This document shows positions 7,661 through 60,907 of a stretch of 64,000 bases of DNA, one piece after another. This DNA comes from Eledone cirrhosa (lineage: Eukaryota): NCBI GenBank assembly GCA_964016885.1, contig OZ024743.1, positions 202,120,001 through 202,184,000 of the forward strand. Direction: 5' to 3'. The stretch's first letter is position 1; the number at the start of each line of letters is the position of its first letter. A model generated the notes under the pieces. It did no database searches. It had not been told where the DNA came from and worked only from the letters and a program-made list of their open reading frames with translations. A program made the position numbers and the translations under genes.

Positions 7661-8580
7661 ATATAAAATAATTAAGTCAAATATATCAAATTTGGCTTCG
7701 TTTATTATAAATTATAGATATACTGCTATATATATTTCGGTGACAGCTATCATTGTTTGTGACCTCTTCAGGCAGTCCGAATTTGTGTGGGAGAGACAGG
7801 TACACATGTTGTTGAAGTGTGTTTTACTCCGTCAATACTCCTATATATATCCAGCTCCTGGTTGCGTTGTTATTTTTCTGAGGAACGGGAATCATATGAA
7901 TTAGAACAAACGAATTCCAGCGTCATAGGACACTCTCTCATCCCATTGGCCAGTTGTGAGAACATTCCTCAGTCAAAAGTCTATAGAAATTTTTCTGAGG
8001 CAAGACAATCTATTGTAGTTGTTTTTGTTTAAGTACAGGTGACCTTCTCCATTGTGTTGGTAGTGGTAGTGTTGTTAATGGGTCAGCTGGCAGGTCAGCT
8101 TTGGTTTGCTGCTGCTATGTTCAGAAGAATTTGTGTGTGTGGGTTGGCATTTATCCTGCCAACATAGACTTTTGACAGGGGAATGTTCTCACGACTCACC
8201 AAATGGATGAGAGAGTGTTCTATGACGCAAACATTCGTTTGTTCTAATTCATATGATTCCAGTTCATCAGAGAAATAACAACGCAACCAGGAGCTGGACA
8301 TATCGGAGTATTGACGGAGTAAAACACACTTCAACAACATGTGTACCTGTCTCTCCCACACCAATTTGGACTGCTGGAAGAGGTCACAGCCAATGATGGA
8401 TGTCATCCAAATATATAGAGCAGTATATCTATAAATGATAATTTATAATAAAGGAAACCAAATTTGACATATTTGACTTAATTATTTTACATTACTACGG
8501 AGTAAACAAACCAACCTGCGTACTTCGTCGAGTGCTCCAATCTGCATACTGACGTGTTGGTAAACAACCATCATATACTA
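7661..8580. mobile_element. Head-to-head inverted pair of a hammerhead-bearing PLE-type 3' end
   Basis: 7661-7985 is the reverse complement of 8163-8490; both outer ends abut (TA)n; same family as 45880-46572. Confidence 0.8.
7722..7776 (-). ncRNA. Type I hammerhead, intact core
   Basis: actgc-CTGAAGA-ggtcaca...tgtcacc-GAAA-tatata-TA-gcagt; decayed mirror copy at 8370-8424 (+). Confidence 0.8.
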
Positions 8581-9343: not shown

Positions 9344-9760
9344 TGCGAGAATGAAGAGAATATACAGGCATGAACGGAATATACAGGCTACTATATGAAG
9401 TACTAATGGCATTCAGTTAGAATAATAACAACAATTACAACAATGCTAGTAATAAATTATTTGAGGAGACCCTGACATTACATTAGGTGGGGGGGGGGGG
9501 GGTATAGTGTATCTAAGATTTCGGCGTGTAAAACTAGCTGACATAAAGCAGAAGTATAAGTTTGGACTAATATCGAAAAGTATGCCCGTTTTGTTATTCG
9601 TTCAATGTATATATATATATATGTATATATATGTAGGAGGTGAGTTTTATTGTAGTACGATAAAGCAATGCAGATATCGGATAAGAAGCACTCTACAGTT
9701 TGTGGGACTGTAGTATACATAATATATAAGGACAAAAGATGGTTAAAGGAGTTCCATATA

Positions 9761-9827
9761 TTTTATTATGCGCATTTCAAAAACAAATATCATCATGCAA
9801 TAATATTTGTGTTTTCATCAGATAAAA
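9761..9827 (-). ncRNA. Type I hammerhead, intact (inverted pLTR copy)
   Basis: ttttat-CTGATGA-aaacacaaatattatt..gatgatatttgttttt-GAAA-t-gcgc-a-TA-ataaaa. Confidence 0.85.
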
Positions 9828-10810
9828 CAGGAAGACATGATATGAAGGCTAAAAAACACTTGTGGATAGTTCAGTTTTAAATCAACATATGAGAAGTTGT
9901 TTTAGATTGATGTGTGATATTGGGAAAAATATTTTATTTAGAGGGGGGGTGGAAAGGATGAAAAAAAGAGGAGCAGATGAGAGTGAAGGTGGAGAGGGAG
10001 GAGTATAGGGAGGAAGGATGAGATAGGAGGAGAGATGGGTGATAGAGAGAGAGAGATTGTTTTTATAACTGAGAAAGATATATTGTTTTACATAGAGAGG
10101 TTGAAAACCGTTGGAAGATAATGTATAAATTAAAAGAATTTGTAAATTAACGTAGAGAAAAAGAAAAAAATATGTGCGAAGAAAGTGAAGGAGTTAATAT
10201 GTATTGAGAATAATGAGTTAGATGATAGGGAGAAAAGAATAATGAATTGCGGATGAATATTCTAACGTCAAAAAAAATTGTATATGTTTACGAAGGATTT
10301 TTATAAGGTGATATGGAGTAAGAATGTGTTGTATTATGTAATAATTGATTCTATGTTAGGCAAGAGTGAGAAAAGGTACAGATTAGGGGTTGGATATTAG
10401 AAGAGAAGAAAAGGAAGTGATAAATATGGGTGATGTAGAAAGAGTAAAACAGGTATTATAGAAATTTGAAAATTAACGAAGAGAAAAATAATGTAAAGTT
10501 AAGGTTTGTATATTGAAGGATTTGAGAAAAATAATGTAAAGTTAAGGTTTGCATATTGAAGGATTTGATAATATGTGCGAAGAAAAATAAAATGTTAATA
10601 TGTATTGAGAATAATGAGTTAGATGATAGGGAGAAAAGAATAATGAATTGAGGATGAATAATCTAGCGTCAAAAAAAATGTATATGTTTACGAAGGATTT
10701 TACAAGGTGATATAGAGTAAGAGTAATGAGTAAACAAGTATTATAGAATGTATAATAACCTTTGAAATAAGGTAGAAAGATGGGTATATTTTTAAAAGAA
10801 GTGTATATAT

Positions 10811-11521
10811 TCCAACATTTCCAACATTATCTCTAAACACAACAATAAAATACTAAATACTAAATCTCTTCCTTCCAACACTGAATTTCATAATAATAGT
10901 ACTCCCGACGTCATTGTAAACCCTAGGCTAATTTCTACAAACCCAAATACAACGTCAAACACAACTTCGCTAAATGTTCATAATCCCACTCTAAATCAAG
11001 AAACTATTATTCCTATCGCAAACAACTTCTCCAATCCAATTCCTTCTATAGATAACACTAGGTCACTCATGAATAATCTCTCTAATTGCAATTGCAATTG
11101 CCCTATTAAAAATAAATGTCCTCTCAACAACCATTGTCTTGATAAAAACTTAATTTACAAATGTAAAGTTATAACTGACACCAATTCCTTCACCTATTTT
11201 GGCTCCACTTCCACCTCTTTTAAAGCTCGTCTTTATAACCATCATTCATCTTTTAAATACAAACTTAAAAGAATCAACACGGCTCTCTCAGAACTCATAT
11301 GGTCCTTGAAAGACAAAAACATTAAATATAGCATCTTTTGGAAGAAGGTTTCTTCTGCGTCTACATACTTGAACAGTTCTCTATCTAAAATCTGCAATCT
11401 CTGTCTAAATGAAAAATTTACCATTATCTCTAATCTAGATTCTATAATAAATAGACGCACTGACTTGTTTTCTATCTGCTTGCATAAATTCCATAAAACA
11501 TTTCACAAAGTATACAGCTAA
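10811..11521 (+). CDS. C-terminal linker plus GIY-YIG endonuclease of a Penelope-like element (5' truncated)
   Basis: Frame is open from the inversion junction at 10811 (SNISNIISKHNNKIL...); CNCNCP..CPLNNHCL..LIYKC..YFGST..FKARLYNH..CNLCLNEK..CLHK. Confidence 0.88.
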   Translation, partial: SNISNIISKHNNKILNTKSLPSNTEFHNNSTPDVIVNPRLISTNPNTTSNTTSLNVHNPTLNQETIIPIANNFSNPIPSIDNTRSLMNNLSNCNCNCPIKNKCPLNNHCLDKNLIYKCKVITDTNSFTYFGSTSTSFKARLYNHHSSFKYKLKRINTALSELIWSLKDKNIKYSIFWKKVSSASTYLNSSLSKICNLCLNEKFTIISNLDSIINRRTDLFSICLHKFHKTFHKVYS

Positions 11522-12547
11522 TATTCAATTCTTTATCAATTTAGAATCTTTTTCTCAAAGGCACATATATACACTTCTTTTAAAAATATACCCATCTTTC
11601 TACCTTATTTCAAAGGTTATTATACATTCTATAATACTTGTTTACTCATTACTCTTACTCTATATCACCTTGTAAAATCCTTCGTAAACATATACATTTT
11701 TTTGACGCTAGATTATTCATCCTCAATTCATTATTCTTTTCTCCCTATCATCTAACTCATTATTCTCAATACATATTAACATTTTATTTTTCTTCGCACA
11801 TATTATCAAATCCTTCAATATACAAACCTTAACTTTACATTATTTTTCTCAAATCCTTCAATATACAAACCTTAACTTTACATTATTTTTCACTTCGTTA
11901 ATTTTCAAATTTCTATAATACCTGTTTTACTAATTATACATTACCCATATTTATCACTTCCTTTTCTTCTCTTCTAATATCTAACCCCTAATCTATACCT
12001 TTTCTCACTCTTGCCTAACATAGAATCAATTATTACATAGTACAACACATTCTTACTCCATATCACCTTATAAAAATCCTTCGTAAACATATACAATTTT
12101 TTTTGACGTTAGAATATTCATCCGCAATTCATTATTCTTTTCTCCCTATCATCTAACTCATTATTCTCAATACATATTAACTCCTTCTCTTTCTTCGCAC
12201 ATATTTTTCTCTTTTTCTCTACGTTAATTTTCAAATTCTTTTAATTTATACATTATCTTCCAACGGTTTTCAACCTCTCTATGTAAAACAATATATCTTT
12301 CTCAGTTATAAAAACAATCTCTCTCTCTCTATCACCCATCTCTCCTCCTATCTCATCCTTCCTCCCTATACTCCTCCTTCTCCACCTTCACTCTCATCTC
12401 CTTCTCTTTTTTTCATCCTTTCCACCCCCCCCCTCTAAATAAAATATTTTTCCCAATATCACACATCAATCTAAAACTACTTCTCATATGTTGATTTAAA
12501 CTGAACTATCCACAAGTGTTTTTTAGCCTTCATATCATGTCCTCCTG

Positions 12548-12614
12548 TTTTATCTGATGAAAACACGAATATTATTGCATGATGATATTTGTTTTTGAAA
12601 TGCGCATAATAAAA
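12548..12614 (+). ncRNA. Type I hammerhead, intact
   Basis: ttttat-CTGATGA-stem II-GAAA-tgcgca-TA-ataaaa, about 35 nt from the element 3' end. Confidence 0.85.
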
Positions 12615-12645
12615 TACATGGAACTCCTTTAACCATCTTTTGTCC

Positions 12646-15066
<2,421 letters not shown>

Positions 15067-19465: not shown

Positions 19466-19476
19466 TATATATATAT

Positions 19477-20275
19477 ATAAATGTAAAAGAATGAAACGAA
19501 ATTTAATTTCTCACTATTAGTACGGCTGATACCTCAATATAAGTATGTATACGTATAAACATACATGTGTACAGACGTACAGTAGTATGTATATATATAC
19601 ATACATGCAAACATATATATATGTACGTATGGGTTTACCGAATATTTATTATAATGTTCGGTTTGTTTGTAAAAAACAGCCCGAATTACGCCGTTTTACG
19701 GGCTGTTTGTTTACAAACAAACCGAACATTATAATAAATGTTCGATAAACCCATACGTACATATATATATGTGTGCATGTATGTATATATACATACTACT
19801 GTGCGTCTCTGCACATATATGTATGTACGTACACCTACTTATATTTAGGTATCAGCCGTACTAAGAGTGAGAAAAGAAATTTCGTTCATTCTTTTCCATT
19901 TATCGTTTTAGGTACGCCCGGCCGACTGACTCACTCGATATGCAAATTAGGCTGCTCATCCGTTAATATGCATAAGCAAAGTATATACTTTCAAACGTTC
20001 AATCATCTGACAGAAAGCTATACGATGGTGACGATAGATAATAAGCTTGAAACTAGTACATCGTTTCCTGTGTCAGTGTTGAACAAAAAGGCGACGATGG
20101 ATGCCGAGGCACTGTACGGCGTAATTCGGGCTGTTTGATTACAAACAAACCGAACATTATAATAAATGTTCGGTAAAACCATACGTATATATATATATAT
20201 ATATATGTGTGCATGTATGTATATATATACATACTACTGTACGTCTGTACACATATATGTATGTACATATACATA

Positions 20276-22629: not shown

Positions 22630-22814
22630 AACCAAAGATTAATATGGTTCATTGATTACTCAATGAATACAGTTTTACAATAGATTAAAAGCACTCAATA
22701 TAAATCATATATTTTATCTGACGAGGACGTACTGGAAAAAAACAGTACTTTCGAAATATATATAATAAAGCATATATTTTGATTATGTGAATATCTTCAT
22801 TTGTTCATATTTTT

Positions 22815-25539: not shown

Positions 25540-28500
25540 TCTTTGAGTCTCAGTCTTTGATGTTATTTAACTGGAAAGTTTGTTGAAATGAATATCAAGC
25601 CACTACCTGCAACCACAGACATTCAGGACGTATCGAAGGGTTCTTGCTGTTCCCAGCAAGCATGCCTTTTGAAGTGTTCCAAAAAGCGGGGCTGAACTAA
25701 TCTTCTTTAAACATCTTTGGAAACTATTTGAGATAGGACCCAGTGCGCCTATGACAATCGGGACGACCTTGATTTCATGGCAGTTCCAAATCCTTTTTAC
25801 CTCCCACTTTAGGTCCTGGTATCGGTTAATTTTCTCCCTCTCCTTCTCTTGCACTCTCGTGTCGAATGGGCAGGCCACACCCACAATCAGGCACGGTCAT
25901 TTTTCTTTGTCCAAAACCACCAGGTCAGGTCTATTGTGTTCCAGTTTCTTGTCCGTCTGTATCCTAAAATCCCACAGCACCTTCACCTGATCGTTTTCTC
26001 TCACCGACTCTGGATTATGCTCATACCACTTCTCAGAATGTGGTAAATTGTTTACTTTGCATAGGTGCCAGTGGATCACCCTGCCCATCACATCATGTCT
26101 CCAGCCCTTATAGTGAGTTTGGGCTAGGTGTTTACACTCGGATACAATGTGAGCCACAGTCTCCTCTCTCTCTCCACAAACCCTGCACAGTGGGCTAGCC
26201 TCCTCCTTGTAAATATGGTGTTGCAACCACTTCGTTTTGAGGGCCTGCTCCTGCGCAGCCATTAACATTCCTTCTGTAGCCTTTTTAAGGTCTCCTCTTT
26301 TCGACCAGTTCCATGTCTGTGGATCTCTAAATTCAGTTTTCTCAAAGAAGGTACTATGAAGGGATTTTTCATGAAGGCTGCTCTTTCTCCTTGATGTTAT
26401 TTCCTCCTTGGACATCCCCTGGTCTATTGTCCCCTCCTTCAGTACAGTTCTGAGCATTGGCTCCTTACTATCAGTCACGTATTTGTGTAGGTTGTTTTTC
26501 TCCATCTGAACACAGTCCTCTATGCTGATAAGACCTCTTCCACCTTCAGATCTCCTTAAGTAGAGTCTATCGACATCACTCCTCTTGTGTAACATATTGT
26601 AGATAGTCAATAGCTTCCTAGTCTTCCTATCCATTTCTTTTTGTTCAGCAACATTCCATCTCAGAATTCCCGCACTGTACCTAATAATAGACACAGCTCG
26701 GGAATTTACTGCACTTATGACATTCCGACTATTTAGATGTGATTTTAATATGTCCCTTACTCTCCTGATGTATTCAGATCTTATCAATTCTTTCATTTTT
26801 TGGGTTCTTGATGTCATCTGCCTCCAGAACACCTAAATATTTGTATCCCTCATCAGTGTCAATTTCCTTTATCATCTCACCTGTTGGTACCTGGATTCAG
26901 TTGCTACTACTCAATTTACCCCTCTTCATCACTAGGACTCCACACTTATTAACACCAAATTCCATACATATATCATTGCTGAAAATACGGACAGTGTCAA
27001 CAAGTAGATCGAAATCCTTCTCACTCTTCCTAAATTGTTTAAGATCGTCCATGAAGATCAGGTGGTTGTTGGTAAGCTCTCCTTTTCCCAACTTGTATCC
27101 TGCTCTCACTTTTCGCAGTATAATTGTCAGGGGTATCAGGGCAAGGACAAACAACAGAGGGGACAGACTATCTCCCTGGAAGATACCTCTCTTGATCTTC
27201 ACGCCTCCCAAAGATCTCCAGCTGATGTTGATTCTGTTTCCCAGGACTTCATACTTTTGCTCAACAACTGTCTGATGTTATCTGCCATCTTGAAGATCTC
27301 TAGGCTTTTGGTTATCCAAGAATGAGGTACCATGTGGAATGCCTTTTCATAGTCTATTCATCGCATGGCAAGATCAGATTGTCCCCTCTTGCAATTCCTC
27401 ATTACCATCTTATCAATAAGTAGCTAGTCTTTTGTACCACGGGACTTCTTTCGGCATCCTTTCTGCTCGTCCGGTAACAAGTTGTTTGTGTGGAGGTGAT
27501 GGTAGATTTCCTCAGACACAATGCTTGTTAGCAGTTTCCACATTACGGATAGACATGTGATAGGTCTATAGTTGGTAACATCATTACCCTTGATTCGGTC
27601 TTACATTACCAGGACTGTGGTACCCTTTGTCAACCACTCTGGTATCTCACCCGACATCAAGCAGTCATTGAACATGGTTGTCAGTTTCGGGTGGAGGGAT
27701 GTTATATTTTTAATCCAATACCCCTGCACACCATCTGGGCCTGGCGATTTCCAGTTGGTTAGTTTTCTGGCCTGCCCTTTAAGAGTTTCAACTGTGATAC
27801 TTAAATCAGTTTGTTGGTGTGCTTGTTCACTAATCTCGTTTTGTACTGTCTCAATCCACACTGTCTGATCATTATGTTTAACATCCTGCTACCATATTCC
27901 TCTCCGGAATGTCTTAGTTTGTTCCTCCTCAGGGATCAAGTCGTTGCCTCTTTCTTTCTCTTCAAGCTGCCCAAACAACATCTTCTGGTTGTTGTCAAAC
28001 ATGCGGTTCTGTCTATACTGACTGACTCTGCTCTCATACCGCCTAATCTTTGCACTCTTTGCTATAATGCGTTGCTTCAGTTCCTCTATGATAATATTTA
28101 GCCTTTTCCTCCTAGTTTTGTACTTTATTTCCAGTCTATTTTTAGTGTCTATATTTTTTAGTGTCCCATTCAGTAGGGACTCAAGCTTTCCAATGTCATT
28201 TCTCATTTCCTTGATTTGACCATTCAGTCGTTTCTTCCACTAAGGTTCTGATCTTTCTTGTTTGTTGTTTCCTCTTGTGTTTATGCCAAGTAATTCCTCA
28301 CCGCATTTGCTGTTGCTTTGAGGATATTGTTGCATTGGTGAAGGTTCCTCGCCTCAAGGTATGGGATGACTTTGTTTACCTTAGCTGTTGTTTCTTTTAA
28401 CTTTTCCCTGTCTACAAATCTATGGTTCATAAGTTTCCCACTATCATTGTTCCTTTCATCTACCACTAAGTTTAGGATATCAACCAAATCTTCTCCTAGC

Positions 28501-30254: not shown

Positions 30255-33200
30255 CTTAAATCTCAGTCATTGATTTTAGTTAACTGGAAAGTTTGTTGAA
30301 ATGAATATCAAGCCACTACCTGCAGCCTCAGATATTCAGGACGTATCGGAGGGTTCTTGCTGTTCCCAGCAAGCATGCCTTTTGAAGAGTTTCAAAAAGC
30401 GTGAAGGGCCAATTTTCTATAACCATCCCTGGAAACTTTTTGAGATAGTACCTAGTGCGCCTATGACAATCGGGACCACTTTGACTTCATGGCAGTTCCA
30501 AATCCTTTTTACCTCCCACTTTAGGTCCTGGTATCGGTTAATTTTCTCCCTCTCCTTCTCTTGCACTCTCGTGTCGAATGGGCAGGCCACACCCACAATC
30601 AGGCACGATTTGTGTTCCAGTTTCTTGTCCATCTGTATCCTAAAATCCCACAGCAACTTCACCTGATCGTTTTCTCTCACCGACTCTGGCTTATGCTCAT
30701 ACCACTTCTAAGAATGTGGTAAATTGTTTACTTTGCATAGGTGCCAGTGGATCACCCTGCCCATCACATCATGTCTCCAGCCCTTATAGTGAGTCTGGGA
30801 TAGGTGATTACACTCGGATACAATGTGAGCCACAGTCTCCTCTCTCTCTCCACAAACCCTGCACAGTGGGCTAGCCTCCTCCTTGTAAATGTGGTGTTTC
30901 AACCACTTCGTTTTGAGGGCCTAATCCTGCGCAGCCATTAACATTCCTTCTGTAGCCTTCTTAAGGTCTCCTCTTTTCAACCAGTTCCATGTCTGTGGAT
31001 CTCTAAATTCAGTTTTCTCAAAGAAGGTACTATGAAGGGATTTTTCCTGAAGGCTGCTCTTTTTCCTTGATGTTATTTCCTCCTTGGACATCCCCTGGCC
31101 TATTGTCCCCTCCTTCAGTACAGTTCTGAGCATTGGCTCCTTACTATCAGTCACGTATTTGTGTAGGTTGTTTTTCTCCATCTGAACACAGTCCTCTATG
31201 CTGATAAGACCTCTTCCACCTTCAGATCTCCTTAAGTAGAGTCTATCGACATCACTCCTCTTGTGGAACATATTGTAGATAGTCAATAGCTTCCTAGTCT
31301 TCCTATCCATTTCTTTTTGTTCAGCAACATTCCATCTCAGAATTCCCGCACTGTACCTAATAATAGACACAGCTCGGGAATTTACTGCACTTATGGCATT
31401 CCTACTGTTCAGATGTGACTTTAATACGCTCCTTACTCTCCGAAGGTATTCAGTTCTTATCAATTCCTTCATTTTTTTGTTCTTGATGGCATCAGCCTCC
31501 AGAAGGCCCAAATACTTGTATCCTTCCTCAGAGTCAATTTCCTTTATCATCTCACCTGTTGGTATCTGGATTCCGTTACTTCTGCTCAACTTACCCCTCC
31601 TCATCACAATGACTCCACACTTACTAATACCAAATTGCATACATATATCATTGTTGAAAATACGGACAGTGTCGACAAGCACATCCTACTCCTTCTCACT
31701 CTTCCCGAAGAGCTTAACATCGTCCATGAAGAGGAGGTGATTGTTGGTAAGCCCTCCCTTTCCCAACCTGTATCCTGCTCTCACTTTTCGAAGTACACTG
31801 GTCAGGGGTATCAGGGCAAGGACAAACAACAGAGGGGACAGATTATCTCCCTGGAAGATACCTCTCTTGATCTTCACGCTTCCCAAGGATTCTCCAGTTG
31901 ATGTTAACTCTGTTTCCCAGGACTTCATACTTTTTCCCAACAACTGTCTGATGTTATCTGCCACCTTGAAGATCTCCAGACTTTTGGTGATCCAAGAATG
32001 AGGCACCATGTCAAATGCCTTTTTGTAGTCTATCCATCCCATGGCAAGACCAGTGTGTCTCCTCTTGCAATTCCTCATTACAATCTTATCAATAAGTAAC
32101 TGGTCCTTTGTACCACGGGACTTCTTTCGGCATCCTTTCTGTTCGTCCGGTAACAAGTTGTTTGTGTGGATCTGATGGTAGATTTCCTCAGACATAATGC
32201 TTGTCAAAAGTTTCCACATTACGGACAGACATGTGATAGGTCTATAGTTGGTAACATCGTTATCCTTGATTCGGTCTTTCATTATCAGAACTGTGGTACC
32301 TTTTGTCAACCACTCTGGTACCTCACCTGACATCAAGCAGTCATTGAACATGGTTGTCAGTTTCGGGTGGAGGGATGTTATATTTTTAATCCAATACCCC
32401 TGCACACCATCTGGGCCTGGTGATTTCCAGTTGGTTAGCTTTTTGGCCTGCCCCTTAAGAGTTTCAACTGTGATACTCAAATCAGTTTGTTGGTGTGCCT
32501 GCTCACCGATCTCCCTCTGTACTTTCTCAATCCGCCCTGCCTGGCCATTATGTCTAACATCCTGCTCCCATATACCTCTCCAGAATGTTTTAGTTTGTTC
32601 CGCCTCAGGGATCAAGTCGTTGCCTCTTTCTTTCCCCTCAAGCTGTCCAAACAGCATATTCTGGTTGTTGTCGAACATGCGGTTCTGTTTATACTGACTG
32701 ACTCTGTTCTCTTTTTGCACTCTTTGCTACAATGCGTTGCTTCTGTTCCTCTATGATAATATTTAGCTTTTTCCTCCTAGTTTTGTACTTTATTTCCAGT
32801 CTATTTTTAGTGCCTATGTTTTTTAGTGTCCCATTCAGTAGTGACTCAAGCTTTCCAATGTCATTTCTCATTTCCCTCATTTGACCACTCAGTCGTTTCT
32901 TCCACCACGGCTCTGCTCTTTCTTGTCGGTTGTTTCCTCTCGCTTTTATACCAAGTAGTTTCCTCACCCTATTTGCTGTTGCTTTGAGGATATTGTTGCA
33001 CTGGTGAAGGCTCCTCGCCCCAAGGTATGGGATGACTTTGTTTACCTTAGCTGTTGTTTCTTTTAACTTTTTCCTGTCTACAAATCTTAGGTTCATAGGT
33101 CTCCCACTATCATTGTTCAATTCATCTACCACTAAATTTAGGATGTCAACCGAATCTTGTCCTAGCCCGTCAGCATTCATCTCCTCAGTGGCCGTATCTC

Positions 33201-34688: not shown

Positions 34689-37600
34689 TGCATTTATCTT
34701 GCTTTATGTTTATACGAGTTATCACCAAGTCACAACCAGTGACCTCAAGAGACAACAAGGTCCGCCATGTTCAAGAAAGGACACACATATTCACACATGC
34801 ATCCTTAGTGTTTAGACTTGTGATGTACTTATATTGACAGGATCTTCCTTAGTATATGGGCAGTTCCCATTAGTACTATCTTTTGTATTTCTCCTATACG
34901 CGGGTTTCCTGGGATTTGCGATAAGTAGTCGTTAGACCCCTTAGGTATCATTCCCAGAGCGCCTACAACCACTGGTATTGTTTTAGTTCTCAATTTCCAC
35001 ATTTTTCCAATTTCTATCTCCAGGTCCTTATACTTGCTCAATTTTTCAAATGTTTTTATAGATACATTCTTGTCTATTGGAACAGACATATCAATTAGCA
35101 GGCATACCCTCATTTGAAAGTCCTTCAATATTATATCAGGTCTATTTGCATCTATTTTTCGGTCTGTTTGGATGCTAAAGTTCCACAAGATTGAGATGTG
35201 ATCTTTTTCAAGTATGGGAGGTGGTTGATGCTCCCACCAATTCTTTTGATGGGGCAGGTCAAAATGCTTACACATTATCCAATGTATGTATTGTGCAGCT
35301 CTGTCATGCCCGTTTAGGTATTCGGTTGGAGCTGTAGGACTGCACATACACGGCATAATGGGCTGCATCCATTTTTTATTATGTTGGCTTGGTAATTTTT
35401 TTATTGGCAGACACTGATCTTGTGCTGATATAATCAGTCCTTCAGTCTCCGATTTCAGTCCAGAGGATGCCAACCACTGATGGGTTAAAGTTTTGTCAAC
35501 ATCAGGATTGTTAGCTCGTTCTGGGTATTTTCCATACAGAGGCTTTTCTTGCCATTTCTTAGCCAGTTTCTTTAGCAGTTCATTCTTTGCAGTTACTTTT
35601 ACCTGCTTTGCTTTTTCTGTGTTTTCCATTTCAGCAGTAAATGGGACTTCTGAAATTTGTAGTCCATTACTGTATCTTTGTGCATCTTTTGTAATAGAAT
35701 ATGATCTTTTGATGCTTTCGTGTTTCAAAACGAGTTTGATCATCCAATCATGTGATTCCCTTAGATATGTAGATAATCCAATTGTTGCAGTTTTCAACGC
35801 AATATCTAACTGGATTAACCCACGAACTCCTTCTTTCCTAGGGAGATATATTCTATCTGTATCTGCCTTAGGGTGATGCATTCTGTGCCTTGGTTAAGAA
35901 TTTTCTCATTTTTGTAACGAGCCTACGGATCTCTGTGCTTGACAAGTTGATGACATTGTAACTGTAGGTTACTACTGGTATGGCAAGCGTGTTTATGGCA
36001 TCGATCCTATTCCTTGCATTCAATACCGTTCTTAAGATTGCTCTTACTCTGCGGTAACATTCCTTCCTTATCCTTTCCCTCATTGTCGAGTGCTTGATTC
36101 CGTCTCCTTCACAAACACCTAGATATTTGTAAGTTTCCTCTTGATCAAGTTCTCTTATCACATTCCCCCGATCAAGATTAATGTCTGAACTTTTCAGCAG
36201 CTTTGCTCTGGTGAACGTTGCTTTGGCGCATTTATCTAGTCCAAACTCGATTTTAATGTCATTACTGAACTACTCCACAGTGGATAATAGCCCTTGCAAT
36301 TGTTCATCATTTTTTGCAAATAGTTTCAGGTCATCCATGTAGAACAAGTGATTAATGGTTTTGTCATAGACTTTATATCCATGTTTTGTTTCATTGAGCA
36401 TTTTACTTAACGGTATAAGTGCGATGCAGAATAAAAGCGGTGATAAAGAGTCACCCTGAAAAATTCCACAATTAATATTAACTTCTCCAACTTCCAGTGA
36501 TTTTGTTTCACTATTCAAAAGGAGTGTCATTTTCCATGTCTTCATACTGAATGACAAGAACCTCTTGACAACGGGAGATATTTTGAAAATCTCTAAACAT
36601 TTTTCAATCCATCTGTGTGGCAAACTATCGAATGCTTTTTTATAATCTATCCAAGCAATTGATAGATTTTTGTGTCTATTATGACAATCTTCCAGTATCA
36701 TTTTGTTAACCAAAAGCTGATCCTTACAGCCATATGAGCCTCGTTTACACCCTTTCTGCTCAATGGGAAATAGGTCATTTGTTATCAGGTGGTCATATGT
36801 GTATTCAGTTAGGACTGATGTTAAAATTGTATACATTGTGGTCAAGCAAGTTATCGGTCTGTAATTTTGGGGATTGTTTGTCTCATCATTCTTTGGAAGC
36901 AGGAATGTAATGCCGTTAACTAGCCATGATGGTATCTTTTCTGGCTCCTTAACTATTTCATTGTAAAGTTGGGCTAACAGCTCATGAGACTCTGTGAAGG
37001 CATTTATCCAAACATTTGGTATTTTGTCTTTTCCTGGTGATTTCCATTTACTGGTTTTTCTAAGAGCCAAACGCAACTGTTCAACTGCTATATTTTCCCA
37101 TATTTGTTCCTCAAGGTGAGCTGTATCTTTCATTTGTCTGTCTATCCATGGGGCATGTATGTTATGAACTTTTTCTTCGGCCCAGATCTTTTCCCAGAAT
37201 TCTTGCACTTCCTCCTTGGGTGGTATTGATTTAGCAGTTATTGTTGACTTACCAATTTTTCTGTAGAAGTTTCTTTGGTTGTTTTTGAACATATTATTGT
37301 CCTTAGAGAATCTAGATCGTTTTTCAAAGCGCCTTATACGAGCAGCTTTGGCCGACACTTTTTGCTTGATTATTTCTATCAGCATGTCTATGTCACTTGT
37401 TGATTTTATACTATACTTTCTTTTCAATTTTCTAAGTTTAGTTTGTTTAACATGTTCACCTACTTTATAGCTTGTTAAAATGTCTATGTCAGATCGGAGA
37501 AGGTTTATTTGGCGATTGATGTTCTCTTGCCAAGTAGATTTCTTGTGAGAATTCCTTTGTTTTTTCATCTTCACTCCACATAAGTGAGTGGTGACTTTAG

Positions 37601-38625
37601 CCGATGCATAATAGAGATGATTTAAATCCGTAATGTTTAGTTTGTTTCTGATGATAATGTTTTTGAGAATTATGTTAGTCTTGTGTATTATCTTTTGGTT
37701 CTGTTTGGAGTTCTGGATCTTAGGGAGGGTGTCTCGTTTCCCCATGTCAGATTCTTTCATTTTCATCCATTCGATCATAATTTCATCCTTCAAGTTGGCA
37801 AGTTCATTCTCATTCATTTCTTTATCATTTACGATCTCATTATTTTCATTTGGAGTTTCATCTTGAGCATGCACACCCTCCACTTTTTTTATCCTTTCTT
37901 TAATTTGTTCTGTTTTCAGTGATTCTGCCTCAACCCTGGGATTTGAAGTGTTACAATTTGCCTCGTTTTCACTGACACATGTTTCATTTTCCCTTCGCTG
38001 ACTTTGTGCTAATGGCTTGATCTGATCAATTTCTATATCAGTTAGTAACTTTTTTTTAACAATATTTCTTCGTAAATTGGCTAGTTTGTTACTGTCAATA
38101 TAGCCTCTGTTTCGGGGATGTTTCTTTTTCCAGTTGATATATGTCTGTTCTGTATTCGATGTATTTGATGGGTAGTACATGGCAGTGTAGAAAGCCTCAA
38201 TGACTTCTTTATTATCCTCCCTTGACCATTTTTCTCTCTTTTTCTTTGGATTTCTTGGTGGTGAGCATGGAGGGCCAACAGTAGGAGTATTCCGGTTATG
38301 GGAGGTCTCCAGCTCCGAAGTGATGGGAAGGTTTGAACCATTAGCTGATTTTTCGACCCCAGTCTGATTTCTCTCTGAGGGACGCGGCCCTTTTTGACCT
38401 GGGCGACGGCCGATCCGGTATGAGATTTTATCATTTGACATTTACTTTATTTTGTCGCGTTTTATCCTTATCGGCCAAAGGGTAATCATTTCGGGTTACC
38501 ACTTCTAGGACGAGTGTCAACCAAAATTAGAGGGGTCGTCCTCCCCTAGAGACACGGCTATTCCCCGCCGGCCACCATCCCGGTATTTCTTGGTCACGGG
38601 TTTTCTTTTTTTTTCTTTTTTTAAA
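34689..38625 (-). mobile_element. R4/Dong-type retrotransposon, copy 3 (different family; ORF 38441-34829, interrupted)
   Basis: 723-aa segment with [35 protein letters not shown]; then YKYLG, NRPDI..IDMSVP..KYKDL..IPVVVGALG. Confidence 0.92.
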
Positions 38626-43918: not shown

Positions 43919-43979
43919 TATTCTATTATATATATTTCAAGGGTACCAAAACTTTGTTACGCTCTCATCAGATAAAATA
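43919..43979 (-). ncRNA. Type I hammerhead, intact core
   Basis: tattttat-CTGATGA-gagcgtaacaaa..ttggtaccctt-GAAA-tatata-TA-atagaata. Confidence 0.78.
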
Positions 43980-45879: not shown

Positions 45880-46572
45880 GAAAAAACACACACTGGATAC
45901 TTCTAAATTGTTAGCAGCAGCAAGATATAAGCTGACCACAACACCAACAACACTACCAAAATAATGGTAGAGGTCAAATGTACTGAACAATAGCAGGCAA
46001 AAACACTACAGGGAGCCTCACCCCAGAAAGAATTCTATAGACTTCTGACCGAGGAATGCTCTCAGAACTGACCAATGGGAAGTTTGACACACTTTTTTTG
46101 TTATTTTGTTCCTTTAACACCTTGTCCCTTCTACCATTTTATCAATGTTTAAGTTAACTCCAACAATAACAACAGTTAGAATGAGGAATGTTCTAATAAC
46201 TGACCAATGAGAGGAGAAGAGGACCTTTGACACTGAAATTCGTTTCTTTGAATTCATATGACTCCAGTTCCACAGTGAAATAACAACCCAACAAGGAACT
46301 GGGCATATCAGAGTATTGACAATATTATACACCTAAACAACATATGTACTTGTCTATACCATACTAATTCAAACTGCCTGAAGAGGTCACAGCCAAAGAT
46401 GGCTGTCACTGAAATATATATAGCAGTAATAAACGAAGCTAAATTTTAATCATTTGACTTTTATTTAACCTTATTTTACACTACTCCGGAGTAACCAAAC
46501 CAAACTGCGCACTTCGTCGAGTGCTCCAGCCTGCATACTGAGGTGTTGGTATACAACCAACATAAACTCAAA
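45880..46572 (+). mobile_element. Hammerhead-bearing PLE-type 3' end (7661 family)
   Basis: Colinear with the reverse complement of 7661-8160 and with 8163-8580. Confidence 0.75.
46373..46427 (+). ncRNA. Type I hammerhead, intact
   Basis: actgc-CTGAAGA-ggtcacagcca-aaga-tggctgtcact-GAAA-tatata-TA-gcagt. Confidence 0.85.
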
Positions 46573-46903: not shown

Positions 46904-46964
<61 letters not shown>

Positions 46965-47253
46965 AAATAACGAAACGAAATTAAATTTCGTTTCGTTTGC
47001 AACTCACTTATGTATGACTGACGCTTAAACAATTAAGTTAAAAATGTACATCTACATATGCATACTGAAATACTAGTGTGTATATGAATACACACACGTA
47101 TACATATGTAGGTGTACCAAGTCTTTCACTGGTCGCTTTACAGTGAGCGGCCCAGCTATTCTGTATGTAAACACACAGACAAACCGGTTTTTAGAGTCAT
47201 ACTGGTTTTTGGGCGAACACCTTCCCCCTATTCTCCAGAAAGCCAGACAAGGA

Positions 47254-47296
47254 ACATTGAACTAGTTTCGTTGTTGTTACAACTCATCAGCAATAT
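47254..47296 (-). ncRNA. Type I hammerhead, intact
   Basis: atattg-CTGATGA-gttgt-aaca-acaac-GAAA-ctag-TT-caatgt. Confidence 0.9.
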
Positions 47297-47845
47297 TTAC
47301 CTATCTACCGGCCTCTCTGGAGAATTGTAAAAGCACATATCGTTATATGCTTTTTCTATGAAAATTAGTAGTGGGCAGACTAATTTGCATAGAGTGTGAG
47401 TACGCACCGGTTCAGCGGAGACGATAAAAACAAATAACGAAACGGAATTAAATTTCGTTTCGTTTGTAACTCACTTTTGTATGACTGACGCTTAAACAAT
47501 TAAGTTAAAAATGTACATCTACATATGCATACTGAAATACTAGTGTGTATATGAATACACACACGTATACATATGTAGGTGTACCAAGTCTTTCACTGGT
47601 CGCTTTACAGTGAGCGGCCCAGCTATTCTGTATGTAAACACACAGACAAACCGGTTTTTAGAGTCATACTGGTTACAAACGAAACGAAATTTAATTTCGT
47701 TTCGTTATTTGTTTTTATCGTCTCCGCTGAACCGGTGCGTACTCACACTCTATGCAAATTAGTCTGCCCACTACTAATTTTCATAGAAAAAGCATATAAC
47801 GATATGTGCTTTTACAATTCTCCAGAGAGGCCGGTAGATAGGTAA

Positions 47846-47888
47846 ATATTGCTGATGAGTTGTAACAACAACGAAACTAGTTTAATGT
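47846..47888 (+). ncRNA. Type I hammerhead, intact
   Basis: atattg-CTGATGA-gttgtaacaacaac-GAAA-ctag-TT-taatgt (first stem I pair is G-U). Confidence 0.87.
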
Positions 47889-48312
47889 TCCTTGTCTGGC
47901 TTTCTGGAGAATAGGGGGAAGGTGTTCCCCCAAAAACCAGTATGACTCTAAAAACCGGTTTTTCTGTGTGTTTACATACAGAATAGCTGGGCCGCTCACT
48001 GTAAAGCGACCAGTGAAAGACTTGGTACACCTACATATGTATACGTGTGTGTATTCATATACACACTAGTATTTCAGTATGCATATGTAGATGTACATTT
48101 TTAACTTAATTGTTTAAGCGTCAGTCATACAAAAGTGAGTTACAATCGAAACGAAATTTAATTTCGTTTCGTTATTTGTTTTTATCGTCTCCGCTGAACC
48201 GGTGCGTACTCACACTCTATGCAAATTAGTCTGCCCACTACTAATTTTCATAGAAAAAGCATATAACGATATGTGCTTTTACAATTCTCCAGAGAGGCCG
48301 GTAGATAGGTAA

Positions 48313-48355
48313 ATATTGCTGATGAGTTGTAATAACAACGAAACTAGTTCAATGT
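48313..48355 (+). ncRNA. Type I hammerhead, intact
   Basis: atattg-CTGATGA-gttgtaataacaac-GAAA-ctag-TT-caatgt. Confidence 0.9.
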
Positions 48356-48578
48356 TCCTTGTCTGGCTTTCTGGAGAATAGGGGGAAGGTGTTCCCCCAA
48401 AAACCAGTATGACTCTAAAAACCGGTTTGTCTGTGTGTTTACATACAGAATAGCTGGGCCGCTCACTGTAAAGCGACCAGTGAATGACTTGGTACACCTA
48501 CATATGTATACGTGTGTGTATTCATATACACACTAGTATTTCAGTATGCATATGTAGATGTACATTTTTAACTTAATT

Positions 48579-48652
<74 letters not shown>

Positions 48653-58855: not shown

Positions 58856-60907
58856 TTCATATATAAAGAACTCAGAAAAAATTATAAAAAATCTAATAAT
58901 GTGTCACTCACCAACATCAACAACAAAACACACAACATAGTAAAAAAACTAAACATTGAAGATAGAACTGAACCTTTGGCATTGAAAAGACCACACTTCA
59001 ACCTGAAAGATCACAAATCTAACTTTAACTCTAATCCTTCTATTAGACTTATATGTCCCTCCAAATCAGATATTGGAATAATTAGCAAAAAAATTTTAGA
59101 TAGAGTCATCCCACAAATAAGAAAACACGTTATTTTACCACTCTGGGAAAACACCTCCCAGGTAATTAACTGGTTTAAAAATATTAGGTGTAAATCTTCT
59201 GCTTCTTTCCTACAATTTGATATAGATAATTACTATTCTTCTATATCACCTATACTCCTGAACAAAGCATTAATATTTGCTAAAAATAGATCTAATTTAA
59301 CTTCGGATGACATTAACATTATTACACATGCTAGACTAACACTTATTGAATTTCAGAATGAATATTGGACCAGAAACACATACAGTAATCTTTTTGATAT
59401 TACTATGGGTTCAAGCGATTCCGCCCAAATTACTGATCTTGTGGGCCTCTTTCTCCTTTTCAACATAAATGCCTCTTTTCCCCACCTCAAAGGTGGTTTA
59501 TATCGTGATGACTGTCTTCTTCTTTCTAACAACCTTAGCCTTTCAGAAATCGAAAAAAACAAAAAACATATTAGAACTTTCCTTAAAGACTATTATAATC
59601 TTAATATTACTTTTGAAAAAACAAGTAAAGTAGTAAATTTCCTAGATATAACTTTAGATTTAGCTACGGGTATATACCAACCTTACCATAAACCTAACCA
59701 AAACTTACATTACATACACTCACAATCTAATCACCCTAAATCTATCCTTAAAAACCTTGCATATAATATATCACTTAGAATTTCTAACCTTTCTTCTAAC
59801 CAAGATGTATTTGATAAAAATGCGACCTTTTATAATGAAGCTCTAGATAGAAGTGGCCACAAAAATAGATTAGAGTATATACCTTCTACTAAAAATACTG
59901 AAAGCATACAGCATAATATTACCAACAAACACCAAATGAAAAGTACACACCTAAATGCCACCCACAATATACCCCAAAATACTAAATCTTCTAATATAAA
60001 GTATAGTAACCCTCAAAAAACTACTCATCATACAACTATAATAAATATTAATAATAAAACTCCTAATATAAAAGATAAAACACCTAAATCTACAAATATA
60101 ACTAAAAATAGTTGTGGTGAGATCATTAACATTAATCCTCCTAGTAAAAATCATGATACAACCTATAAAAATAATAAAAATAATAAACAACATAGAAACC
60201 GTAATAGACGAGTTACTTGGTATAATGCTCCTTTTAATTTACAAGTTAAGGATAATATTGCTAAAAAATTTTTTTATATCCTTGAGAAAAACTTCCCGCC
60301 AAACCACAAATACCATCAAATCTTAAATAGGTCTACAGTTAAATTCTCATACTCTACAACAAATAACATAAAACAAAATATAAGTGCATATAATGCATAT
60401 AAATGTAAGAAAACCATAAGTATACCACCAGTACATCAAATTAACAATAATATCTCCTCAAATACAGAATTAACGAAAGGATGTAACTGTAGAAACAAAA
60501 CAAACTGCCCATTAAAAGGGAATTGTCTTGTTAACAACATAGTCTATAAATGTAATGTTAAAACTAAAGATTCTATTTGCTCATATATAGGAGCTACCTC
60601 TAACAATTTTAAGACAAGGTTTAATACCCACAAGCATAGTTTTAAAAATGCCGCACTGGCTAATACAACATCTCTAGCAGAAAAAATCAATAGTTATAAA
60701 AATAAGAATATAAAATATGATTTGACCTGGAGTGTGCTCAAAAGAGCCACCCCTTATCAAAATAATAGAAAGGAATGTAGATTATGTTCCCAAGAACTAT
60801 TTGAAATAATGAAGTCTAAGGATATCTTATTAAATAAACGACAGGAATTAATTATATCGTGTAATCATAAACTAAAAAAAACATTTAAATATTATAAACC
60901 TAATTAA
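58856..60907 (+). CDS. Penelope-like reverse transcriptase plus GIY-YIG endonuclease (N-terminally truncated)
   Basis: LKDHK..RLICPSKSDIG, FLQFDIDNYY, FDITMGS, GLYRDD, VNFLDITL, SNHP, CNCR..CPL..IVY..YIG..FKTR..H..CRLC; frame is open back to the inversion junction, so the GTG at 58901 is not the true start. Confidence 0.95.
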   Translation, partial: FIYKELRKNYKKSNNVSLTNINNKTHNIVKKLNIEDRTEPLALKRPHFNLKDHKSNFNSNPSIRLICPSKSDIGIISKKILDRVIPQIRKHVILPLWENTSQVINWFKNIRCKSSASFLQFDIDNYYSSISPILLNKALIFAKNRSNLTSDDINIITHARLTLIEFQNEYWTRNTYSNLFDITMGSSDSAQITDLVGLFLLFNINASFPHLKGGLYRDDCLLLSNNLSLSEIEKNKKHIRTFLKDYYNLNITFEKTSKVVNFLDITLDLATGIYQPYHKPNQNLHYIHSQSNHPKSILKNLAYNISLRISNLSSNQDVFDKNATFYNEALDRSGHKNRLEYIPSTKNTESIQHNITNKHQMKSTHLNATHNIPQNTKSSNIKYSNPQKTTHHTTIININNKTPNIKDKTPKSTNITKNSCGEIININPPSKNHDTTYKNNKNNKQHRNRNRRVTWYNAPFNLQVKDNIAKKFFYILEKNFPPNHKYHQILNRSTVKFSYSTTNNIKQNISAYNAYKCKKTISIPPVHQINNNISSNTELTKGCNCRNKTNCPLKGNCLVNNIVYKCNVKTKDSICSYIGATSNNFKTRFNTHKHSFKNAALANTTSLAEKINSYKNKNIKYDLTWSVLKRATPYQNNRKECRLCSQELFEIMKSKDILLNKRQELIISCNHKLKKTFKYYKPN

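What the first reader, a model, noticed from the sequence alone, without database searches (positions are those of the whole stretch)
46961..48582. Young 467-bp hammerhead tandem unit: retrozyme-like element predicted to make a viroid-sized circular RNA
Seen: a non-coding 467-bp unit repeated almost identically, each full copy with a perfect type I hammerhead core. The two plus-strand ribozymes would cut after 47882 and 48349, releasing exactly one 467-nt monomer. The monomer is rich in pairings: stem I extends via attctccagagaggccgg/ctggctttctggagaat, plus aacgaaacgaaatt/aatttcgtttcgtt, aagcatat/atgtgctt and ctacatatg/catatgtag. Stem III is the palindrome ACUAGU, best formed by two tandem ribozymes acting as a dimer. 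Established: animal non-LTR retrozymes are tandem hammerhead repeats that yield circRNAs and are thought to be mobilised by PLEs. Inference: this is a recently active family at the large end of that size range; I do not know of a description from this lineage.
Basis: partly seen in the sequence, partly recalled or inferred. Interest (0 to 1): 0.92.

Follow-up and report, generated by a model that had tools for sequence, protein, structure and literature searches.

The report
Hammerhead retrozyme with Penelope insertion footprint
This is one of thousands of copies of a small non-coding jumping element with a self-cutting RNA motif, and the shape of its insertions suggests that a Penelope-type enzyme copies it round and round from a small RNA circle, a step long proposed for such elements but not yet shown.

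Summary
Observation confirmed, and extended. The locus is one insertion in (TA)n made of two back-to-back inverted arms of a 467-nt non-coding unit, with three type I hammerheads (GUU site, one-pair palindromic stem III). The genome holds 9,226 exact copies of this hammerhead and at least 2,088 insertions. A sister family has 23,450 hammerheads. In 82 of 100 consecutive insertions one arm ends at unit position 303 and an inverted arm at about 229-234; none of 97 far ends seen runs into a Penelope-like (PLE) ORF. Two ORF-bearing Hydra-type PLEs in the window leave the same footprint. Arms read through the cleavage site. All 22 deeply covered loci have their own haplotype, and one has 18 of 18 identical units across both arms. 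In-register units of the two arms share 2 alleles and differ at 147. Inherited variants keep base pairs (41 of 52), unit-private ones do not (45 of 180). Best reading: a non-LTR retrozyme mobilised in trans by a Hydra-type PLE, mostly by rolling-circle reverse transcription of a monomer circle from two fixed start sites. Cleavage, expression, the circle and the partner's identity are inferred, not shown. New member of a known kind with unusually direct mechanistic footprints.

The parts
46907..46961 (.). (TA)n target tract, left
   Evidence: TRF; lies at the 3' end of another hammerhead-bearing repeat
46957..47674 (-). Arm A: 718 nt, unit positions 53-467 then 1-303; 3' end at fixed site A (303), 5' end truncated
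   Evidence: same end in 2,088 exact genome matches
46957..47025 (-). 69-nt tail (unit 235-303) present at this end only; contains the GAAACGAAA hairpin
47253..47297 (-). Type I hammerhead of arm A; predicted cleavage between 47260 and 47259
47672..47674 (.). 3-nt overlap joining the two 5'-truncated arms
   Evidence: overlaps or gaps of 5 nt or less in most of 68 two-arm loci
47672..48583 (+). Arm B: 912 nt, unit 257-467, 1-467, 1-234; 3' end at fixed site B (234)
   Evidence: site-B junctions 869 + 666 exact genome matches
47845..47889 (+). Type I hammerhead 1; core from 47852, stem III palindrome ACUAGU 47876-47881, cleavage after 47882 (GUU)
47883..48349 (+). 467-nt cleavage-to-cleavage monomer, the predicted circular RNA
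   Evidence: structure under selection
48312..48356 (+). Type I hammerhead 2; core from 48319, palindrome 48343-48348, cleavage after 48349 (GUU)
48582..48652 (.). (TA)n target tract, right
   Evidence: TRF

Best explanation
A non-autonomous non-LTR retrozyme moved in trans by a (TA)n-targeting, Hydra-type Penelope-like element. Step 1 (inferred): an arm with two or more hammerheads is transcribed. Step 2 (inferred from sequence and folding): neighbouring ribozymes pair their ACUAGU palindromes, cut as a double hammerhead and release one unit whose ends are already held together by stem I. Step 3 (inferred from other animals): a host ligase closes it; a lone hammerhead with a one-pair stem III is weak, so the circle lasts. 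Step 4 (footprint shown, enzyme inferred): the PLE protein cuts both strands of a (TA)n tract and primes reverse transcription from each strand, one at site A (unit 303) and one at site B (229 or 234) of the same RNA. Step 5 (inferred from clonal arrays): each polymerase runs round the template for a variable distance, and the two cDNAs are joined at their truncated ends. Step 6 (shown): long arrays later gain point changes and internal duplications like satellite DNA. Each cycle passes through a single unit, so each insertion is born clonal and RNA structure is selected.
For: Footprint: 82 of 100 consecutive site-A junction loci on contig C1 have an inverted arm ending at 224-235; 67 of 68 arm junctions are distinct; the two ORF-bearing PLEs in the window also have one short and one long end in (TA)n, tails about 89 and 136 nt; their proteins carry the Hydra motifs listed in PMC8557442; PMC11167929 shows in vitro that a PLE extends both strands from two internal start sites that define the tail. 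Endless template: 78 of 100 A arms and 56 of 70 B arms cross the cleavage site; 11 of 160 5' ends lie near it against 7.9 expected; all 284 crossings read with intact flanks have exact length. One unit per insertion: 18 of 18 units identical over both arms in L191; L114, L073, L066 without a difference; 22 of 22 loci with four-fold cover have distinct haplotypes; 147 private variants are absent from the in-register unit of the other arm and 2 alleles are shared; no true variant pair is shared between loci. Selection on RNA: inherited variants keep pairs 41 of 52, private ones 45 of 180 (p 3e-12); G-U versus A-C 25:7 against 35:38 (p 0.005) points to the hammerhead strand; 0 of 11 core positions vary between haplotypes while 5 private changes hit them.
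Against: No RNA was observed. Eight of 22 deep loci have shared minority variants; most fit later duplication, but L081 (and perhaps L121, L122) has in-register sharing between arms, as a multimeric template or gene conversion would give. In the anole PLE, hammerhead cleavage was not needed for insertion in vitro and uncleaved RNA was the main substrate. Only 1 of 9 Xenopus retrozyme dimers cleaved in vitro. Core invariance alone is weak (about p 0.055, my estimate from 108 of 467 variable positions). The paired structure was derived from the same family, which inflates pair keeping, and the 6 two-sided changes are about one event each on the tree. The unit shows no sequence link to the young PLE tested. 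The sample needed an exact junction, so it is biased to young copies; assembly polishing could flatten identical arrays.
Confidence: 0.68

Rival explanations
1. Same PLE-driven twin priming, but on uncleaved linear multimers from very young clonal donor arrays; the ribozyme and any circle are by-products, and long arrays come from unequal crossover.
For: Cleavage dispensable for the anole PLE; higher-order structure in L089/L206, L117, L205, L207 and the 31-hammerhead array; L081 in-register sharing; multimeric RNAs seen in axolotl.
Against: Typical arrays carry 3.3 private changes per kb (371 in 111,611 bases), which a linear copy would hand to both arms in register; seen for 2 alleles against 147. 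22 of 22 distinct haplotypes need a one-unit bottleneck each cycle. No junction or flank is carried over from a donor. Both arms are long and identical in L191.
Confidence: 0.17
2. The template is a cleaved linear monomer that the RT re-enters by jumping from its 5' end to its 3' end; no covalent circle.
For: Gives the same clonal arrays; the monomer's ends are paired in the predicted fold; one small duplication near the cleavage site in L065.
Against: No excess of arm ends at the cleavage site and no added or lost bases in 284 crossings.
Confidence: 0.08
3. The unit is the pLTR of a rare autonomous PLE and the arrays are its truncated or solo pLTR products.
For: The footprint is that of a PLE; 24 of 57 Xenopus retrozyme families were homologous to Repbase elements, nearly all PLE termini.
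Against: 0 of 97 far ends run into a PLE ORF; arms wrap through all 467 positions; two sister families about 58% alike keep the same circular layout. Only two Hydra-type proteins were used as queries, so a rare parent of another clade is not excluded.
Confidence: 0.05
4. A satellite or foldback DNA element spread at the DNA level; the hammerhead is incidental.
For: Terminal inverted arrangement, TA flanks and satellite-like turnover of long arrays.
Against: Unequal fixed ends, random inner truncation, strand-specific G-U bias and a hammerhead kept in two families.
Confidence: 0.02

Closest known systems
Metazoan non-LTR retrozymes (coral, mussel, axolotl; PMC7229834; parts 2-4 of 6 of the text read, covering most results and the discussion)
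   Same: Non-coding, AT-rich tandem units of a few hundred bases, each with a type I hammerhead; highly paired predicted circle; a one-pair stem III with palindromic tetraloop as in axolotl HHR_Amex1, which cleaves well only as a dimer.
   Different: Unit of 467 nt (their circles 170-400 nt); GUU/GUC site; insertions are two inverted arms with two fixed ends, which the parts read do not describe. They showed cleavage and circles; here neither is shown. Their RT-on-circle step and PLE partner were proposals; PMC7761336 (passages) says the repeats show no motif pointing to a partner.
Vertebrate retrozymes as non-autonomous PLE derivatives (bioRxiv 10.64898/2026.07.22.740005; parts 1-3 of 5 read, abstract to discussion; supplements closed)
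   Same: PLE link; sizes 51-972 bp; monomers to long arrays.
   Different: Link rests on co-occurrence and pLTR homology; they lean to local amplification by unequal crossover; no mollusc sampled. Here there is no pLTR homology to the PLE tested, but an insertion footprint and clonality evidence.
Hydra-clade and other EN+ Penelope-like elements (PMC8557442, passages and section 11; PMC11167929, parts 1-2 of 4; PMC3846280, passages)
   Same: Inverted 5'-truncated arm, tail at one end only, (TA)n target, hammerhead upstream of two internal RT start sites.
   Different: No ORF; tail 69-74 nt rather than 30-40 (89 and 136 nt in the window's own PLEs); start sites 229-303 nt after the cleavage site; arms are multimers of one short unit.
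Newt satellite 2 and hammerhead viroids
   Same: Double-hammerhead cleavage logic (PMC4209133, passages); size and pairing like a viroid.
   Different: Ribozyme on one strand only; spreads through DNA insertion; the snRNA-type promoter reported for newt satellite 2 (seen only as cited in PMC2220036) was not found here.

Membership tests
Non-LTR retrozyme | Tandem units each with a type I hammerhead | tested here: met
Non-LTR retrozyme | No coding capacity, no LTR/PBS/PPT, GC under 50% | tested here: met
   No frame of 100 aa inside the unit; GC 0.36 in the bin holding it; PBS/PPT not searched separately
Non-LTR retrozyme | Dispersed, high-copy, mobile | tested here: met
   2,088 site-A junctions, control 0
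Non-LTR retrozyme | Highly self-paired monomer | tested here: met
Non-LTR retrozyme | Self-cleavage of the transcript | not testable with these tools
   Indirect only: core and stems conserved, dimer fold favoured
Non-LTR retrozyme | Expressed as monomeric circular RNA | not testable with these tools
   No run on record as RNA was available to test it
Non-LTR retrozyme | Target-site duplication where present | tested here: inconclusive
   Hidden by (TA)n on both sides
PLE-mobilised sequence | Inverted 5'-truncated arm and one-sided tail from two start sites | tested here: met
   82 of 100 loci; in-window PLE controls
Autonomous PLE / ordinary pLTR | RT plus GIY-YIG ORF between the repeats | tested here: not met
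   0 of 97 far ends; tblastn with two Hydra-type proteins only
Derivative of the young Hydra-type PLE of this window | Sequence homology to its pLTR or ends | tested here: not met
   Only low-complexity matches against 30 loci; different end sequences
Viroid or viroid-like replicon | Ribozymes in both polarities and RNA-to-RNA replication without a DNA form | tested here: not met
   Hammerhead on one polarity of the unit only; thousands of DNA copies

The most novel reading that the evidence does not exclude
These insertions are the genomic record of twin, target-primed rolling-circle reverse transcription: a dimeric Hydra-type PLE enzyme starts on one viroid-sized RNA circle at two fixed sites, one per DNA strand, and writes two clonal multimeric arms. 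The circles then evolve as lineages in their own right, selected for structure at each one-molecule bottleneck, forming a superfamily of over 30,000 hammerheads in one genome with intact, near-identical candidate enzymes beside them.
Probability: 0.55. Interest if true: 0.8.

Novelty: new member of a known kind. Interest (0 to 1): 0.64.

Why it matters
How animal retrozymes spread has been a drawing rather than a result: the papers read propose that some reverse transcriptase copies the circle into tandem cDNA and name PLEs as likely partners. This family supplies testable specifics: the two start sites, the target, a clade of partner with intact ORFs in the same genome, and population evidence that each insertion comes from one unit. 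It also gives a short natural template for studying how PLEs build their inverted ends, and a compact system linking viroid-like circles to retrotransposons.

Tried and rejected
Expression: no RNA holder listed among public runs; four runs of unknown kind laid as contigs cover parts of the unit, which shows presence only. snRNA-type promoter: both families keep an ATGCAAAT octamer, but 0 of 7 upstream regions of this genome's U1 and U2 genes have one, and no convincing match to their shared motifs was found in either unit; the octamer lies in a stem, so the promoter is unknown. Stops at the cleavage site as proof of cleavage in vivo: suggested by the best-hit loci but absent in the unbiased sample. 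Chimeric PLE-retrozyme insertion naming the partner: L116 and L101 are nested insertions separated by TA, not chimeras. Dimeric circle with one dead ribozyme in L194: the change is in the palindrome and the pattern is irregular. Nearest-neighbour test of arm B against its own arm A was blunt: own arm closest in 20, tied in 12, another locus closer in 21 of 53, because private changes count against the own arm; replaced by the in-register test. Far ends of L077, L099 and L117 were not reached. Earlier scan notes: none found. Pfam did not recognise the two PLE proteins. miRNA-family hits are far below cut-off and reflect AT hairpins.

Full report
Observation. The 467-bp period, the two plus-strand hammerhead cores and the predicted cuts after 47882 and 48349 are there. 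The monomer folds far better than shuffles, linear or circular. Rfam finds nothing at gathering score, but ranks the three sites first as weak Hammerhead_HH9 matches. Ten of 467 positions differ among its copies. Positions below count from the cleavage site (1 = 47883).

Host. The genome has 3.0 Gb. I take it to be an octopus or close relative from a SINE I recall; no call establishes this.

Family size. A DNA search gave 882 candidates, 40 scored, nearly all 97-100% alike. Exact patterns give 9,226 hammerheads, 2,088 junctions of position 303 with (TA)n, and 869 + 666 junctions of 234 and 229; reversed controls 0, 0, 1 and 0. These are floors. Real units are 462-470 nt and 85-99% alike, in a ladder-like tree. 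A sister family, about 58% alike in a global alignment, has units of about 420-540 nt, a GUA site, the same ACUAGU palindrome and ends at matching places (20 loci examined, about half mapped clearly). It has 23,450 exact hammerheads and a decayed copy in this window.

Architecture. I took the first 100 site-303 junctions on contig C1. In 64 a mapped inverted arm ends at 224-235; 9 have a short stub of it by script and 5 more by eye; 4 more were resolved by longer fetches: 82 of 100. Ten end in TA without such an arm, 5 abut other sequence, 3 were not reached. No locus had 303 at both ends. Inner junctions are scattered over the unit and 67 of 68 are distinct; the repeat is a pair of loci 18 kb apart with the same structure. 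PLE fragments occur in some flanks, but none continues from an arm; the queries were two Hydra-type proteins only.

This is a PLE footprint. PMC8557442 describes an inverted truncated copy, a tail at one end and (TA)n targets (passages). PMC11167929 shows in vitro that a PLE protein cuts and extends both strands and starts at two internal RNA sites whose interval is the tail. The window gives two controls: ORF-bearing elements at about 9.6-12.6 kb and 56.1 kb to past the window end each have one short and one long end in (TA)n. The second protein has RWR, DKT, CxCx5C, CxxC and CxH motifs, read by eye against the Hydra description, and all 65 scored copies are 99-100% identical without stops in the matched part. 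It shares no real sequence with the unit, so the clade is a candidate and the family is unnamed.

Template. Arms do not stop at the cleavage site: 78 of 100 A arms and 56 of 70 B arms pass it, and 11 of 160 inner ends fall near it against 7.9 expected. Of 299 crossings, the 284 with intact flanks all have exact length: 168 GUU, 113 GUC, 2 GUG, 1 with a changed next base. So the template is a circle or an uncleaved multimer. Insertions look born clonal: L191 has 18 of 18 identical units, 12 and 6 on the two arms, and differs by 3 substitutions from its nearest sampled locus. All 22 loci with four-fold cover have different haplotypes; 14 are star-like and 8 have shared minority variants. If both arms copied a linear multimer, in-register units would share the donor's private changes. 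They share 2 alleles, while 147 private variants are missing from the in-register mate. No real variant pair recurs between loci among 106 units (the one hit involves a junction base), though 100 of over 2,000 loci gives limited power. Against this: L081 fits a multimer or conversion, and long arrays show periodic variants best read as later duplication, so array length alone is not evidence of rolling.

Selection on RNA. In 55 real units the structure has 99.4% paired cells and 6 pairs changed on both sides, including stem II of the hammerhead; cells with such changes exceed all 500 shuffles, the pair count does not (72 of 500), and these are few events. The sharper contrast is inherited versus private change: pairs are kept in 41 of 52 against 45 of 180, and 29 of 31 for variants in two or more loci; G-U outnumbers A-C 25:7 against 35:38. 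The structure came from the same family, which favours keeping; the strand bias is less exposed to that. No core position varies between haplotypes, though private hits occur. A double hammerhead is 10 kcal/mol more stable than two single ones and 6 above the free minimum, in line with PMC4209133 on palindromic stem III (passages).

What is shown and what is inferred. Shown: sequence, copy number, two-ended footprint, read-through, clonality, structural selection, intact PLE ORFs. Inferred: transcription and its promoter, cleavage, ligation, the circle, the enzyme. Cautions from print: cleavage was dispensable for the anole PLE and 8 of 9 Xenopus dimers did not cleave.

Comparison. It meets every sequence-level feature of non-LTR retrozymes and works like a PLE substrate; it is not an ordinary pLTR in the sample and not a viroid. 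PMC7229834 proposes RT on circles and PLE partners without showing either; the 2026 preprint adds pLTR homology in Xenopus. Paper searches for retrozyme/hammerhead/octopus, hammerhead ribozyme/cephalopod/Penelope, retrozyme/rolling circle/inverted and related terms, octopus/hammerhead ribozyme and octopus/Penelope/tandem repeat listed no description of this family or of two-armed retrozyme insertions; only listings were seen for most. A 2026 octopus repeat annotation has no mention of ribozyme or hammerhead in its main text. Supplements, repeat libraries, Dfam, Repbase and subscription journals were not seen and may hold the family under another label.

Verdict. A new member of a known kind, interest 0.64. 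The element is expected; the value lies in footprints that turn the proposed retrozyme life cycle into a defined experiment.

Noticed in passing
window 19467-20270: Two-armed copy of the sister retrozyme family with a changed hammerhead core; the family has 23,450 exact hammerheads, units of about 420-540 nt with an internal (TA)n.
   Followed up: partly
window about 56140 to past 64000; ORF 58856-60907: Young Hydra-type PLE with inverted arms; 830-aa frame in full copies, 65 of 65 scored copies 99-100% identical; very long microsatellite-rich non-coding part and a hammerhead with a long stem II. Not recognised by Pfam.
   Followed up: partly
window about 9635-12646; ORF piece 10796-11521: 5'-truncated Hydra-type PLE with inverted arms, two hammerheads (palindrome AUGCGCAU) and an 89-nt tail.
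   Followed up: partly
window 46378-46422, 7727-7771, 22718-22764, 43927-43971: Further hammerhead motifs with AUAUAUAU stem III, of PLE type; the first belongs to the repeat whose TA tract received this insertion.
   Followed up: no
window 36270-38441, 31686-32726, 25897-26832 (minus strand): LINE-type frames with RVT_1 or zf-RVT matches.
   Followed up: no
L192/L193 (C1 5.738-5.753 Mb), L206, L205, L207, L194: Arrays of 14 to 31 units with periodic shared variants, like satellite DNA being born from retrozyme insertions.
   Followed up: partly
L195 875-7273: Family copy whose two parts are separated by about 4.8 kb holding a 1040-aa LINE frame; one end joins (CAT)n instead of (TA)n.
   Followed up: no
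L124, between the arms: About 60 GC-rich bases of other origin at the inner junction, perhaps captured during joining.
   Followed up: no
L208-L214: U1 and U2 genes of this genome lack an octamer upstream; they share a TCAGT-like motif near -58 and an ACCTCCCTT-like motif near -260.
   Followed up: no
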